NCBI RefSeq assembly: GCF_006345805.1
Contig: NC_043021.1
Coordinates: forward strand, 13,330,001-13,394,000
Length of the DNA: 64,000 nt
Source: Octopus sinensis
Taxonomy: Eukaryota
Reading direction: 5' to 3'
Shown: positions 3,485 through 61,794 of the stretch, piece by piece
Position numbering within the stretch: the first letter of the stretch is position 1
Layout of the letters: every line of letters starts with the position of its first letter
Translations under genes and position numbers: made by a program
The notes under the pieces: model-generated
What the model was told of the DNA's origin: nothing
The model's input: the letters and a program-made list of their open reading frames with translations, nothing else
Databases searched by the model: none

Positions 3485-3877
3485 ATGTTACTATTGTTTT
3501 TAGCCCCAGGAAGACATCTCCTCCAGCTGGTTAACGTCACATAGTCTGTGTCCAATTAGTATTTGCGAGGGGAGGTCATTGCTCCCGTCTCTAGCCTTAT
3601 GTGATACACACAAACCCAGGTTTCTGAGTAGTTACTCGTCTTCAGTGTGTGATAATCGCCAGCTAGTGATGAAAACTCATTTCACTCGCAAAGGAAGAAA
3701 TAAGTTATATTAAATCTCTGAGACGGGTAACTACCCAGAAACCTGGGTCTGTGTGTATCACATAAGGTTAGAGATGGGAACGATGACCTCCCCTCACAAA
3801 TACTAATTGGACACACACAGTGTGTTGTTAGCCAGCTGGAGGAGACGTCTTCCTAGGGCTAAAAACAACAGTAACAT
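3485..3877. mobile_element. Fold-back element (about 160-bp inverted arms, about 70-bp spacer) with hammerhead motifs; Penelope-like pLTR derivative
   Basis: Arm 3485-3645 is the diverged reverse complement of 3718-3877; both arms carry a hammerhead-like motif next to the spacer. Confidence 0.75.
3607..3651 (-). ncRNA. Minimal type-I hammerhead ribozyme motif
   Basis: Minus strand reads cacaca-CTGAAGA-c-gagt-aact-actc-a-GAAA-cctggg-TT-tgtgtg: 6-bp stem I, 4-bp stem II with a C.A mismatch at its base, short stem III, GUU site. Confidence 0.7.
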
Positions 3878-6800
3878 CGTCCTCTATGGGACCACCACAT
3901 TTAGTTGAGAAATATATTTTACAATATATATATATATATATATATATATATATATATATATATATATGTGTGTGTGTGTGTGTGTGTGTGTTTGCATACA
4001 CACCTTTGTGTGTGCATATTTATAAATATGTATATATAGTTATATGTATTATTTTGTTTCAGTCAATGGACTGTGGCCATGCTGGGGTATTGCCTTGAAG
4101 AATTTCTAGTCAAATAAATTGACCCCAGTACAAATTTTATCAGCCGCTTTTGCTGAACTGCTAAGTTACATATATATAACCACTAAGTTACACACGCACA
4201 AATATGTGCACATGCATCTTTATATAAGGTGAATTGGCAGAATTGTCAAAGTGTTAGATAGGATGCCTTCTAGTATTTAGTTCTGGTTCTCTGCACACTG
4301 AGTTCAAATCCTGCTGAGGTGAGTCAACTCTGCTATTAATCCTTTCGGGCCATCCAGAGTAGAGGATTGGCAGAAGTGTTAAAGAGTTGGGTGAGATAGC
4401 TCATTATATCTGCTCCGACTCTTAGCATTCTGACAGCAATGCCTGCAGCAACACTGGTGCCAAACTGTATCATCCCAAATTGGCAGCCTTTTCCTAGGAT
4501 AAACATTGGTGGCTGGTGCAGAGAGGGGTGACTTGCATACTTGCAAGCATGGGATACAGTTTTCTTTAAAAAAAAATCTTGCCCAGGCTTGTGCAGACAA
4601 GTGAAAATGAATGGACAACACTAACCAATAGAAGCCATATATATATATTTGATAGATAGATATAAAAATCGATATAGATATAAATACATATATATTTATA
4701 TACAGAAAGATATATAGACATAAAAATCGATATAGATAGATATAAATACATATTTATATACAGATAGATATATACACATATATAGATACACAGAGGCAAA
4801 TAGACACATATTTAGACAGACTGACAGACAAATAGATAGAAATAGATAGATAGATAGATAGATAGATAGATAGATAGATAGATATGTAGACAAACAGGTT
4901 TGTGTGTGTGTGGTGAACACAATTCATTCTATATTTCAACATAAAAAAACCACAAAAGTCCTCAATAAAGTGCCGTTGTGGGGCAGTGGGTACAGAGAAT
5001 TGATTGTAGTTCGCTTAATAATTAACAATACAAATTCACAATGACTGTTTAATGAACATAAATATAACTAAAAATATGTGTGGGTTCATATATAGATGTA
5101 TGTGTGTGCGGGGGGGGGGAGAACTTAGTATTTGACTGATTAAAAAAATGTGATTATTCTATATATAGTATCTGTTTCCTTTAAACTATTAATCAACTAT
5201 ATATATATATATATATTATATATATATATATATATATATATATATATTATTTATACGCGCGCACACACAAGCACATATACATATAAATCTTTCTACTGCT
5301 ACAGGAAAAAGGCCTGAAATTTTAGGGGACGGGGTAAGTCGATTGGTATTTATTTTACAGGATCCGGAAAAGTGAAAGGCAGAGTCGACCTGGGCGGAAT
5401 TCGAACTCAAAATGTAAAGTCGGCAGAAATGCCGCTAAAGATTTTGTCATAGATAAATGTATATGCGTGTGATAAAATTATGTGTGTGTATACACATAAG
5501 CATACATTATAGATGATATACCACTTACATATATAAACAGATGTGTTTGTGTATCTGAATAAACGTCTGTATATATACATATATGTATGTGTGTACATGT
5601 GTGAGTGTGTTTATGCATGCGTACGTATGTATACGTATGCGGTGATGGCTTAACTAGTTGAAAAATCGAAGCCCCTGTCAGGAGCATTCTTGTATAAGAA
5701 CAATAAACTGGTATTCTACAAAAGTGTACAGTAAACCATCAGATTAATGTAAAATTGTTTCATTGTAACTGAACATAAAACCAAACATAAATACATACAC
5801 AGAGAGAGAGAGGAGAAAGTCATTGTAGAGAACCTAGTTTCACATTATAATTTAAGCCGCAGTTCGGTCCGGTGGACCGACCATATTTACATAAAAAGAA
5901 AAGAGAGAGAGAGAATCTATCTATAACCCATTCTAGTTTATTTCTTCAAGGCTAGTGTGTATCTTAGATTAACACTACCCATTTCCTATTTCCTTAACTT
6001 GAGATAAGATTCGGTCGCTAATTCGAGCAAACCGCCAAGTGGTTTCCGCGTTTAAGACCCTCCTAAGGGTAGATGTTCGCGGGAGCAGCTTAGATTCTAC
6101 CGCACATGTGCTGTTTCCTGAGAGACCAAGAGACCATCTTCAGCCATAATCTGAACACACACGACAAACATAGACATATAGAAACTCGCCAGTCTTTTTA
6201 TATTTGGTAGAGATGGCCATGAATAAATTTGGAGTAATTTATTTTATTCAATATAATTGAAAAGAGTAATGAATAGCTACGTGGAAGTTTTCTATCTATC
6301 TATCTATCTATCTATCTACACACACACACATACATATTTTCTGTTTTCCAGTTTCAGCTCTTGAGCTGTGGCCATGCTGGGGCACCGCCATTTATGTATA
6401 TATATACACACATATGTGCACAAACATACACATATATAAATGTATACACACATATAAATATACACATACACACACACACAACCATATATATATATACCCA
6501 TGTACATATATATACGTACATCGCTTGTAGGTTGATACGTGTAAAGATTATGATAGAGGAAGCCGCCTATATAATTGTGTATATGATGTGAGTGTATGCA
6601 TATATATATATGTATGTATGTATACACACAAACACACACAGAGATATCACATAATCTGCACTGACAGTCCTCAGTAAAACATCTGATATTTTCCAGTCGC
6701 ACAGAAAAAGAAGGAAAAAAAAAAAGAGAAAGCACCCTCCCCCACACACACTTATAAACATATACTCAGTACTATGTCCATAAACAAAAAAAAACTATAT

Positions 6801-6879
6801 ACACGATTACCACAAAAATATTACCAGCCGCCTTCCCCAGCTAAAAAAAATTAAGCTAAAAGCATGCTTAAAGGCCTAC

Positions 6880-6914
6880 CTCATACAAAAGCCGAAAAAT
6901 CGTAGTAACTGCAT
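6880..6914 (-). CDS. Possible first coding exon (MQLLRFFGFCM+AG) of an unidentified gene
   Basis: Minus strand caac-ATG CAG TTA CTA CGA TTT TTC GGC TTT TGT ATG AG|gtaggc in non-repeat sequence; no downstream exon identified. Confidence 0.2.
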
Positions 6915-7119
6915 GTTGAGGTGTGCTGGATGGAGTAAAATACGGTGGAAATCAACTGAGTATGGTGAATAATAACGATCGTTTTCTTCCGTTTTGTTGT
7001 TGTTTTGCTCTGTATGTGTTTGTTGTTATTGTTTTACAGCGTCAGAGGCACAGAGGGTGAGAGAAAGCCTGTCAGGTCCATGTCGGTTCGTAAAGGGCAC
7101 TGGCTGTGTGATAAACTTA

Positions 7120-60223: not shown

Positions 60224-60866
60224 CAGGGTGCTATGGGTAAATTGTTGCCATTTTATATTTTTAATTTCGTGCATGTGCATTGTTCATTTTTCATTTTGTC
60301 CACTGCACAGTATCGTAGGGTCAGTTGGGCACTGTCTGCAACAAAAACAGCCATGATGCAATTCTCTCTGCCAGAAATTTGGAAATGACATGTAGTACTG
60401 CTTAGTATTCACACCAGAAGCACCTATATGAACACTTCAGAGTGTTTGGACGTCAATCTGAGGTCAGTGCAATCTGAGGACATGTACCGAGAGTCATAAA
60501 AAAATCAAACATTCAGTCAACATAATGGTGTTTGGAATGATCACTAGTGATGGCAACATTATGCCTCCATTCATCATCCCACATGGCCACAGACTCAACA
60601 CAGAGGCCTACATCAAGTGCTTGGAGGCTGTAGTGCTGCTCTGGGTGAAAAGGGTGGCTGCTGGGAGACCTTGTCTGGCAACAGGACTCTGCACCATGCC
60701 ACAATTTCTGCGACCCTAATATCTGGCCACCTAACTCCCCAGACTGTAACCCCCTTGATTATTATGTGTGGGGTGCAGTTACGTGAGAGACCAACAAAAC
60801 TCCTTATAACACCAAGGATGAATCGAAAACAAGGATTATGGCTGCATTCACCAACTTAAACAAGGA
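60224..60866 (+). pseudogene. Decayed Tc1/mariner-superfamily transposon with transposase remnant
   Basis: TIR-like start cagggtg; ATG at 60353; VMVFG-like IMVFGMITSDG, WQQDSAPCH and IWPPNSPDCNPLDYYVWGAV catalytic-domain motifs, with stops, deletions and frameshifts. Confidence 0.9.
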
Positions 60867-60962
60867 CAGAAACAAGTCATCAATAAACGATGAGGTATAA
60901 TATTACAGGAAAGTGAATTGTGGTTAATTGATTTCATTAAAATTATTTTTAATTACCATATA

Positions 60963-61343
60963 GGCGCAGGAGTTGCTGTGTGGTAAGTAGCTTGCTAACC
61001 AACCACATGGTTCCAGGTTCAGTCCCACTGCGTGGAACCTTGGGCAAGTGTCTTCTACTATAGCCTCAGGACAACCGAAGCCTTGTGAGTGGATTTGGTA
61101 GACGGAAACTGAAAGAAGCTCGTTGTAGATTCTTATTTATATATATATGTATGTGTCTGTGTTTGTCCCCCTACCATCGCTTGACAACTGATGTTGGTGT
61201 GTTTACGTTCCCGCAACTTAGCGGTTCGGCAAAAGAGACCGATAAGTACTAGGCTTCCAAAGAACAAGTCCTGGGGGTCGATTTGTTCGACTAAAGGCGG
61301 TGCTCCAGCATGGTCGCAGTCAAATGACTAAAACAAATAAAAG
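60963..61343 (+). mobile_element. SINE family A, full length
   Basis: Family A consensus. Confidence 0.9.
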
Positions 61344-61794
61344 AATATATATATATATCACCATGACCGACCAGGGTATCAGATGTTGCAACACATCGCT
61401 GGTCACAATGCGCTTTGCATTGTTTTAGCCTGCAAATGATGCCACACTGCTGGCTAAACAGCAGGCCAACAGAAGAAAGAGTGAGAGAAAGTTGTGGTAA
61501 AAGAGTACAGCAGGGATCGCCACCTTTAGGTGGGTTGGTATGAAGAGGGACTTTTTGTTACCATATTCCTGTTGAAACACACTGTCTTTGTTTCTGATAA
61601 TTTTGAGGACTAAACAGAACAGGAAGTGACACATGGGATGGAGAGTCACTGAAGAGGTCACAGGAGGTGTGACGAAAGATTCTAGACAAAGGACACTAAA
61701 ATAGGAATAATTATAAAGCTGAAGAGAGGATCAAATATATAGTGTGTGTGTGTGGTTAATTGGCAAAAAATATGACCATCCCCAAATATAGCAA

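What the first reader, a model, noticed from the sequence alone, without database searches (positions are those of the whole stretch)
3485..61710. Several unrelated short element families share one design: minimal hammerhead ribozyme, fold-back arms, microsatellite neighbourhood
Seen: hammerhead-type motifs in four sequence-unrelated families (3607-3651; family 1 at 33.1, 34.0, 35.6, 48.0-48.5 and 51.6 kb; 34822-34885; 39595/39789/53134) and a degenerate fifth (28.9, 47.1, 61.6 kb). All have a very short or palindromic stem III, and none has an ORF. Established: Penelope-like retroelements carry minimal type-I hammerheads in their pLTRs, are proposed to cleave as dimers, and often insert with an inverted truncated pLTR. 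Inference: this genome hosts a dense, diverse population of non-autonomous ribozyme-bearing retroelements (retrozyme-like) mobilised by Penelope-like RT/GIY-YIG proteins. I cannot tell whether these families are already catalogued.
Basis: partly seen in the sequence, partly recalled or inferred. Interest (0 to 1): 0.85.

Follow-up and report, generated by a model that had tools for sequence, protein, structure and literature searches.

The report
Hammerhead-bearing stumps of Penelope retroelements
The small hammerhead ribozyme motifs are real, but they sit in short fragments that are likely the dead tail ends of several Penelope-like jumping genes, an arrangement already described, rather than a new class of ribozyme elements.

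Summary
The hammerhead motifs are at the stated coordinates: 9 strict cores against 0.01 in shuffles. I found one more degenerate candidate at 52056.

Family 1 matches published Hydra-clade Penelope-like elements (PLEs). It has the same stems I and III, (TA)n targets, an inverted 5'-truncated arm, and two alternative 3' ends 71 nt apart (a tail), seen in four public runs. Of 124 outside loci with this ribozyme type, 16 carry the end of a PLE ORF just upstream and 17 fold back.

The pieces are best read as 5'-truncated PLE ends. They are not retrozymes, because they form no tandem monomers. Fold-back and microsatellite context hold for only some families.

One lead: in the outside relatives, 50 of 57 5' ends lie within 15 nt upstream of the core, about 30 nt downstream of a TATA box. 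This suggests promoter-less copies of an uncleaved RNA's 5' end.

The scan noted similar PLE stumps before in other genomes. Verdict: new members of a known kind.

The parts
3482..3641 (-). Family A, left (inverted) arm. Its intact hammerhead spans 3607-3651, past the homologous arm (C3 3645, H17 3613, GUU; stem III 4+4 with G-U; C·A at 10.1/11.1)
3721..3923 (+). Family A, right arm (142/160 identical to the left arm). Core has lost one base; stem II pair A-U vs G-C between arms; about 43-nt extension 3881-3923 ending at a (TA)n run (possible tail)
28784..29030 (+). Family D fold-back (arms 28784-28888 and 28891-28995). Degenerate hammerhead, C3 28966 (G12 lost); the 3' part appears to continue near 29335-29378 beyond an inserted repeat
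33131..33359 (+). F1 insertion: perfect palindrome 33131-33288 with hammerheads at 33197(-) and 33222(+); tail on the right arm only; (TA)n on both sides
33980..34208 (+). Identical duplicate of the 33.1 kb F1 insertion, duplicated together with its flank (not an independent insertion)
34822..34885 (+). Family B hammerhead (C3 34826, 6-bp stem II with 25-nt loop, 8-nt perfect palindrome stem III, GUA). Single copy; (TA)n about 105 nt downstream
35560..35666 (+). F1 single tail-less copy between (TA)n runs; stem II broken by one change
39560..39718 (+). C2, diverged relative of C1; hammerhead C3 39599 (A6 changed); stem I closing pair C-G where C1 has G-C
39735..39908 (+). C1 copy a; hammerhead C3 39793 (U4C, extra A after A9, 4-nt palindromic stem III, GUU)
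47138..47200 (+). Family D diverged copy, hammerhead C3 47146
47970..48640 (+). Longest F1 insertion: arms 47970-48259 and 48269-48569 (287/301 identical), hammerheads at 48036(-) and 48503(+), tail 48570-48640
48570..48640 (+). F1 tail (71 nt) between the two alternative 3' ends; holds a predicted hairpin like that of Hydra-type relatives
51527..51770 (-). F1 fold-back: tail-bearing arm on the minus strand (two core deletions), tail-less arm on plus (C3 51705), short spacer
52018..52061 (-).
53064..53257 (+). C1 copy b, same 5' and 3' ends as copy a; hammerhead C3 53138; 37 nt of low-complexity flank repeated on both sides (possible target-site duplication)
61609..61740 (+). Family D copy, hammerhead C3 61649, ending at a TA/(TG)n run

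Best explanation
These are likely short, dead 3'-end (pLTR) copies of five or six different Penelope-like retrotransposon families, each carrying a minimal type-I hammerhead motif that is predicted to cut only as a dimer.

Shown: the motifs and their stems; for F1, two discrete 3' ends at (TA)n, variable 5' ends and an inverted arm; in relatives, the same ribozyme sitting just behind a GIY-YIG-type ORF end.

Inferred from known PLE biology: the element's GIY-YIG endonuclease nicks TA-rich DNA. Its reverse transcriptase starts inside the RNA at either end of the tail, which gives the two 3' ends. It stops after 85-300 nt, and self-priming or a second priming adds the inverted, tail-less arm.

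Inferred from the outside relatives: most stumps stop about 10 nt upstream of the ribozyme because the template RNA starts there, about 30 nt after a TATA box in the pLTR. Such copies lack the promoter and cannot spread on their own.

F1 and probably A and E have the Hydra-clade ribozyme design. C, and less surely D, has the extra-purine design also seen behind Neptune-type ORFs. A fold-back transcript holds only one sense ribozyme, buried in a long hairpin, so these copies would be inert.
For:: motifs far above shuffles.

(Craig 2021, File S2): Hydra-clade hammerheads often have unpaired bases on both sides of stem II and a 4+1+4 or 4+2+4 stem III, and nearly all listed families prefer (TA)n. 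Hydra-2_aMil has the same stem I and triplet as F1, and a stem III differing only in the loop base; Penelope-3_HM has F1's stem III exactly.

contigs end in (TA)n behind 48574 (79, 4, 2 and 40 contigs in runs X1, X14, X3, X5) and behind 48637 (67, 2, 1 and 69). Opposite-strand joints occur at further positions.

124 loci. In 16, a PLE ORF end lies 87-560 nt upstream on the same strand; only 42 loci had 400 nt of room. There are 17 fold-backs, with the tail on one arm in 13, on neither in 4 and on both in 0.

RVT_1 plus GIY-YIG in the L124 ORFs, each followed about 200 nt later by a C-like hammerhead.

stem II, left free in the pattern, pairs in 87.5% of positions over 24 distinct sequences against 42% shuffled, with U-A/C-G exchange.

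a covariance model of the relatives' tails alone ranks the four F1 tails first in the window, starting right behind the ribozyme.

50 of 57 5' ends within 15 nt of C3; TATA box at -43 to -37 in 12 of 16 ORF-linked copies, background 2.7%.

Literature: inverted 5'-truncated copy and tail (PMC8557442, PMC3846280); tail defined by two RT start sites (PMC11167929).
Against: The outside loci share only the ribozyme with F1 by BLAST, which the pattern selected for, and nothing with A, B, C1, D or E. The assignment of those families rests on design alone.

The tail model hits are individually weak (E 0.6-0.7), and a sequence-only profile missed them. The F1 tail is 71 nt, against 30-40 bp in print.

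The six ORF ends first scanned gave no Pfam hit. GIY-YIG in the Hydra-type ORF L122 stayed just under its cut-off.

F1's own TATA is non-canonical at -44, and a canonical one sits at -29. Its four insertions start at about -14, -7/-20, -44 and -240, so the start-site rule is only partly met in the window.

Monomer folds are no more stable than shuffles (z 0.55 to -1.77). Only 1 of 16 variable places falls in the ribozyme (about 2 expected), which is not significant conservation.
Confidence: 0.85

Rival explanations
1. Some families, above all C1, are true non-autonomous SINE-like or retrozyme-like elements with fixed ends, transcribed on their own and mobilised in trans by PLE proteins.
For: Two C1 copies in unrelated flanks share both ends and differ at 6 of 174 aligned bases plus a 16-nt indel; one has a 37-nt flank repeat. 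No ORF remnant lies beside any family. Animal retrozymes are reported to derive from pLTRs, and monomers occur (bioRxiv 10.64898/2026.07.22.740005).
Against: No tandem monomers in the window. F1 5' ends vary. Shared ends are also expected if copies run from the tail to a fixed RNA start. The C1 cores carry U4C and GUU. There are only two copies.
Confidence: 0.12
2. The motifs are chance matches inside ordinary repeats or MITE-like palindromes, and the fold-backs are assembly artefacts.
For: No Rfam hit at gathering threshold. Folds are not more stable than shuffles. The 33.1/34.0 kb duplicate may be an assembly artefact, and the window has an N gap.
Against: 9 strict cores vs 0.01. Compensatory changes between copies (A stem II, C stem I). 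Opposite-strand joints in independent runs and 17 fold-backs in unrelated assemblies. Match to published Hydra-clade ribozymes.
Confidence: 0.03

Closest known systems
Hydra-clade Penelope-like elements (Craig et al. 2021, PMC8557442), e.g. Hydra-2_Amil, Penelope-3_HM, Hydra-1_Obim
   Same: F1 has stem I and the GUA triplet of Hydra-2_aMil and the stem III of Penelope-3_HM; (TA)n targets; ribozyme near the 3' end; inverted 5'-truncated copy; tail with a similar hairpin.
   Different: F1 is not Hydra-1_Obim; five window motifs were absent from that supplement (line breaks could hide a match). F1 stem II is only 2 bp closed by A·A, with G or U variants at 48519 in other copies, shorter than the 3-7 bp listed for Hydra elements. 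Its tail is 71 nt. No ORF is present in the window.
[quoted passage not shown]
   Same: Type-I core, short palindromic stem III, extra base after A9 (families C, D), many unrelated families per genome, mostly solitary or as opposite-strand pairs 100-700 bp apart and attributed to truncated PLEs.
   Different: Cephalopods are not named in the parts read. Most window copies lack the G10.1-C11.1 pair (F1, A, B, E).
PLE insertion unit with inverted pLTR and tail (Arkhipova et al. 2013, PMC3846280; Frangieh et al. 2024, PMC11167929)
   Same: Head-to-head inverted arms with a palindromic junction, tail on one arm only, TATA plus initiator in the pLTR, AT-rich targets.
   Different: Here only the terminal 85-670 bp are present. 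The pile-up of 5' ends about 10 nt before the ribozyme was not seen in the passages read.
Animal non-LTR retrozymes (Cervera and de la Pena 2020, PMC7229834)
   Same: Short, non-coding, type-I hammerhead, proposed PLE helper.
   Different: Retrozymes are tandem 150-450 bp repeats, typically with canonical ribozymes, that yield circular RNA. The window elements are dispersed, single or inverted, with minimal ribozymes.

Membership tests
Minimal type-I hammerhead of PLEs | CUGANGA and GAAA cores with an NUH triplet, closed by stem I | tested here: met
   Intact in F1 (most copies), A left arm, B and D 47146/61649; one core change in C1, C2 and D 28966.
Minimal type-I hammerhead of PLEs | Very short, palindromic stem III | tested here: met
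   The self-dimer minimum-energy fold forms the intermolecular stem III for A (left arm), F1 48503, B and E, but not for C or D.
Minimal type-I hammerhead of PLEs | Stem covariation across copies | tested here: met
   Stem II in relatives 87.5% paired vs 42% shuffled. Single compensatory changes in A and C. Within F1, only 48519 varies.
Minimal type-I hammerhead of PLEs | Self-cleavage, as a dimer | not testable with these tools
   No raw-read RNA run was offered; contigs cannot show RNA ends.
Rfam Hammerhead_1 (RF00163) | Score at or above the gathering threshold (34 bits) | tested here: not met
   best 16.2 bits for B.
Hydra-clade PLE (for F1) | Single ORF with RT and C-terminal GIY-YIG upstream of the ribozyme | tested here: inconclusive
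   Absent in the window; one search skipped the 5' part. Present upstream of the same ribozyme type in 16 of 124 outside loci.
Hydra-clade PLE (for F1) | Hydra-type hammerhead near the 3' end | tested here: met
   Compared by eye with File S2 of PMC8557442; aligned to outside loci.
Hydra-clade PLE (for F1) | Insertion into (TA)n | tested here: met
   8 of 8 window ends measured; loose ends in four runs.
EN+ PLE insertion unit | Variable 5' truncation, adjacent inverted copy, optional 3' tail on one end | tested here: met
   F1: 3 of 4 insertions fold back, tail on one arm each. Tail 71 nt rather than 30-40. A and D show fold-back; B and C do not.
Animal non-LTR retrozyme | Head-to-tail tandem units, each with a hammerhead | tested here: not met
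   No hammerhead-bearing tandem array. The 33.1/34.0 kb pair is a duplication that includes flank.
Animal non-LTR retrozyme | Abundant circular RNA monomers | not testable with these tools
   No suitable RNA data.

The most novel reading that the evidence does not exclude
The stumps are a defined by-product of PLE replication, comparable to a strong-stop cDNA. RNA starts at a TATA promoter about 10 nt upstream of the hammerhead. Reverse transcription primed in the tail of the upstream pLTR runs off that uncleaved 5' end after 100-170 nt, and the product inserts with an inverted arm. This would explain why genomes hold thousands of solitary minimal hammerheads, and would imply the ribozyme does not cut the RNAs that get copied. 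F1 would add one of the smallest natural stem II forms (2 bp, purine-purine closure), and C1 could be a free-standing non-autonomous family.
Probability: 0.4. Interest if true: 0.5.

Novelty: new member of a known kind. Interest (0 to 1): 0.27.

Why it matters
As a catalogue entry it is modest. It adds several hammerhead-bearing PLE families in what looks like an octopus genome (host identity rests on SINEs recalled from memory, not on a call). Recently active PLEs are already reported in O. vulgaris (31 families, 336 insertions; PMC13282606).

The function of PLE hammerheads is an open question (PMC8557442; PMC11167929 found cleavage dispensable in vitro). The start-site pattern, if it holds, makes it testable. 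It predicts where PLE RNA begins and that copied RNA is uncleaved.

Tried and rejected
No whole genome is held, so copy numbers and ORF links in the source genome could not be obtained.

Pattern scans: exact F1 core in metagenome contigs gave 0. The C core and the generalised F1 pattern in viral contigs gave 0. The A pattern in the 124 loci gave 0.

Rfam by E-value over the window listed 150 of 341 hits, mostly microRNA look-alikes of microsatellites and palindromes, with no hammerhead among those shown. A tail-only nucleotide HMM found nothing above shuffles. Folding z-scores were uninformative.

One search listed no holder on record as RNA, which is no evidence on expression. Contig depth falls towards the 5' end and is highest over the tail in the guessed-RNA run X14. 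I did not use it, since contig depth cannot rank parts of a stretch. A>G differences in X14 also stand in the DNA run X5, so they are not counted as editing.

Among the outside loci, 7 copies start inside the ribozyme (1-22 nt after C3) and none at the cut site. The sample is biased, because loci were chosen by an intact ribozyme.

Other core-like matches (29, 8968, 10371, 18611, 19164, 26028, 42376) lack stems and were rejected. The remnant at 33631-33667 (duplicate 34481-34517) has stem I and the 5' core but no GAAA, so it was left as a candidate only.

Literature searches. None of the listed titles is a study of cephalopod PLE ribozymes. Lunse et al. 2017 (PMC5785218) is not held, so F1's stem II variant may be in print there. 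The O. vulgaris supplement was listed but not read, bioRxiv supplements are closed, and Dfam/Repbase were not available.
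Full report
Setting. The window is AT-rich, repeat-dense animal DNA with many SINE copies and microsatellites. The SINEs look like the octopus tRNA-derived families; that is recalled and comes from no call. No whole genome is held. The longest F1 arm is held by 20 of 24 listed runs, from 13 studies and nine coded organism labels, none on record as RNA.

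Observation. A descriptor demanding both cores, stem I, stem II, a self-complementary stem III and NUH finds 9 cores against 0.01 in 100 block shuffles; a relaxed version finds 14 against 0.77. Seven of the nine are F1 copies, and 33.1 and 34.0 kb are one duplicated segment, so F1 has four independent insertions. By BLAST the families do not match each other, but C2 aligns to C1 as a diverged relative. Between copies there are compensatory changes in A stem II and C stem I. Rfam does not call any of them (B reaches 16.2 bits), and monomer folds are no better than shuffles, as expected for such small motifs. No ORF remnant was found: 150 of 466 non-repetitive frames were scanned against Pfam, and PLE proteins from outside loci gave a best tblastn E of 0.16. 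The shared design is only partial. Fold-backs occur in A, F1 and one D copy. Tight (TA)n context holds for 8 of 8 F1 ends measured and for the 3' end of B, but not for the A left end or the provisional D ends.

What F1 is. File S2 of Craig et al. 2021 (PMC8557442; passages, supplement searches, supplement parts 2, 52 and 53 of 59) lists the hammerheads of Hydra-clade PLEs. Many have an unpaired base on each side of stem II and a 4+1+4 or 4+2+4 stem III, and nearly all listed families prefer (TA)n. Hydra-2_aMil has F1's stem I and triplet, and Penelope-3_HM has its stem III. Laying four runs on 48260-48640 shows two discrete 3' ends, both followed by (TA)n: behind 48574 (79, 4, 2 and 40 contigs) and behind 48637 (67, 2, 1 and 69). 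Opposite-strand joints occur at other positions. In the window, each of the three independent fold-backs has the tail on one arm only. This is the published PLE unit (PMC3846280 passages), and the tail is explained by two internal RT start sites (PMC11167929, parts 1-2 of 4). The only variable place in the ribozyme is 48519, position 11.1: G in 38% and U in 22% of summed contig depth in X1, where U restores a pair. One of 16 variable places falling in 38 of about 277 covered bases is not significant conservation. The stretch 48260-48367 was skipped by the tool, so F1 was not joined to an ORF.

Outside relatives. These are most likely animal host DNA; one of the two main families agrees by eye with Hydra-2_Amil. 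Stem II pairs in 87.5% of positions over 24 distinct sequences against 42% shuffled. In 16 of 124 loci the end of a PLE ORF lies 87-560 nt upstream on the same strand; only 42 loci had 400 nt of room. There are 17 fold-backs, with the tail on one arm in 13, on neither in 4 and on both in none. The six ORF ends first scanned had no Pfam hit, though by eye their C-termini resemble the published Hydra ORF ends. Longer ORFs in L122 and L124 hit GIY-YIG, and those in L124 also RVT_1. The L124 ORFs, Neptune-type by their cysteine linker (my reading), are followed about 200 nt later by hammerheads with an extra A and a short palindromic stem III, the design of family C. To test homology beyond the selected motif, I built models from 13 distinct outside tails only. 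The covariance model ranks the four F1 tails first in the window, starting just behind stem I, though at E 0.6-0.7. The sequence-only profile missed them. The outside loci match none of A, B, C1, D or E, so those families are assigned by design only.

A lead on mechanism. In the two main outside families, 50 of 57 informative copies begin within 15 nt upstream of C3, 2 at 16-60 nt and 5 beyond (ungapped extension, a few bases uncertain; copies near contig ends and duplicates dropped; copies cut inside the ribozyme are invisible to the pattern). A TATA box lies at -43 to -37 in 12 of 16 ORF-linked copies, against 2.7% at random places; these copies represent only a handful of subfamilies. A start 30 nt after that box falls where the 5' ends pile up. 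I infer that most stumps copy an uncleaved RNA from the tail to its 5' end, and so lack the promoter. Seven copies start inside the ribozyme and none at the cut site (biased sample). For F1 itself the fit is partial: a non-canonical box at -44, one insertion starting near -14 and 10 contigs with a loose end at 48489, but other insertions at about -7/-20, -44 and -240.

Function. Cervera and De la Pena 2014 (PMC4209133, parts 1-2 of 4) describe many families of minimal hammerheads per genome, mostly single or as opposite-strand pairs, tied to truncated PLEs and weakly active only as dimers. A review (PMC6765202 passages) says the same and cites Lunse et al., which is not held. Self-dimer folds form the intermolecular stem III for A, F1, B and E. 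A fold-back transcript has one sense ribozyme paired to its antisense copy, so I expect these loci to be inert; this is untested.

Retrozyme reading. Animal retrozymes are tandem repeats yielding circular RNA (PMC7229834 passages; bioRxiv 10.64898/2026.07.22.740005, part 1 of 5 and passages, supplements closed). The window has no such array. C1, with two copies sharing both ends, is the one candidate for a non-autonomous element, but a fixed RNA start would give the same picture.

Novelty. PLEs are known in Octopus (Hydra-1_Obim and Naiads; 31 recently active families in O. vulgaris, PMC13282606, part 1 of 3 and passages), and 235 Hammerhead_1 loci were counted in the giant squid (PMC6962438 passage). 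Searches listed no paper devoted to these families. Repeat libraries and several supplements could not be seen, so they may be catalogued. Verdict: real motifs, a known kind of element, new members. Interest 0.27; about 0.5 if the start-site model holds.

Noticed in passing
window 33631-33667 and 34481-34517: Hammerhead-like remnant with a 5-bp stem I and the 5' core but no GAAA, inside the roughly 330-bp duplicated flank of the F1 insertion; possibly a further decayed PLE end.
   Followed up: partly
window 33131-34628: About 850-bp tandem duplication, almost letter-perfect outside the microsatellites; very recent or an assembly artefact.
   Followed up: partly
window 52066-52488: 22-bp period satellite array directly upstream (minus strand) of the family E hammerhead candidate.
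   Followed up: no
window 29030-29335: About 300-bp repeat that appears to have inserted into the 3' part of the family D element.
   Followed up: partly
window 43500-43870: Two adjacent imperfect inverted repeats seen by eye, with no hammerhead core; possibly MITE-like.
   Followed up: no
window 56997-57369, 57998-58451, 11819-13727: SINE copies also form head-to-head or tail-to-tail inverted pairs, so fold-back alone is not specific to the ribozyme families.
   Followed up: no
L122 and L124 (one MAG contig): A record titled as a bacterial MAG holds a cluster of several different intact-looking PLE ORFs, each followed by its own hammerhead; probably animal host DNA binned into the MAG.
   Followed up: partly
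window 48570-48640: Loose ends show related subfamilies sharing the F1 tail but differing upstream; one variant changes only the loop and bulge of the predicted tail hairpin.
   Followed up: partly
window 26987-27527: 32/96-bp tandem array of about 17 units, unrelated to the finding.
   Followed up: no
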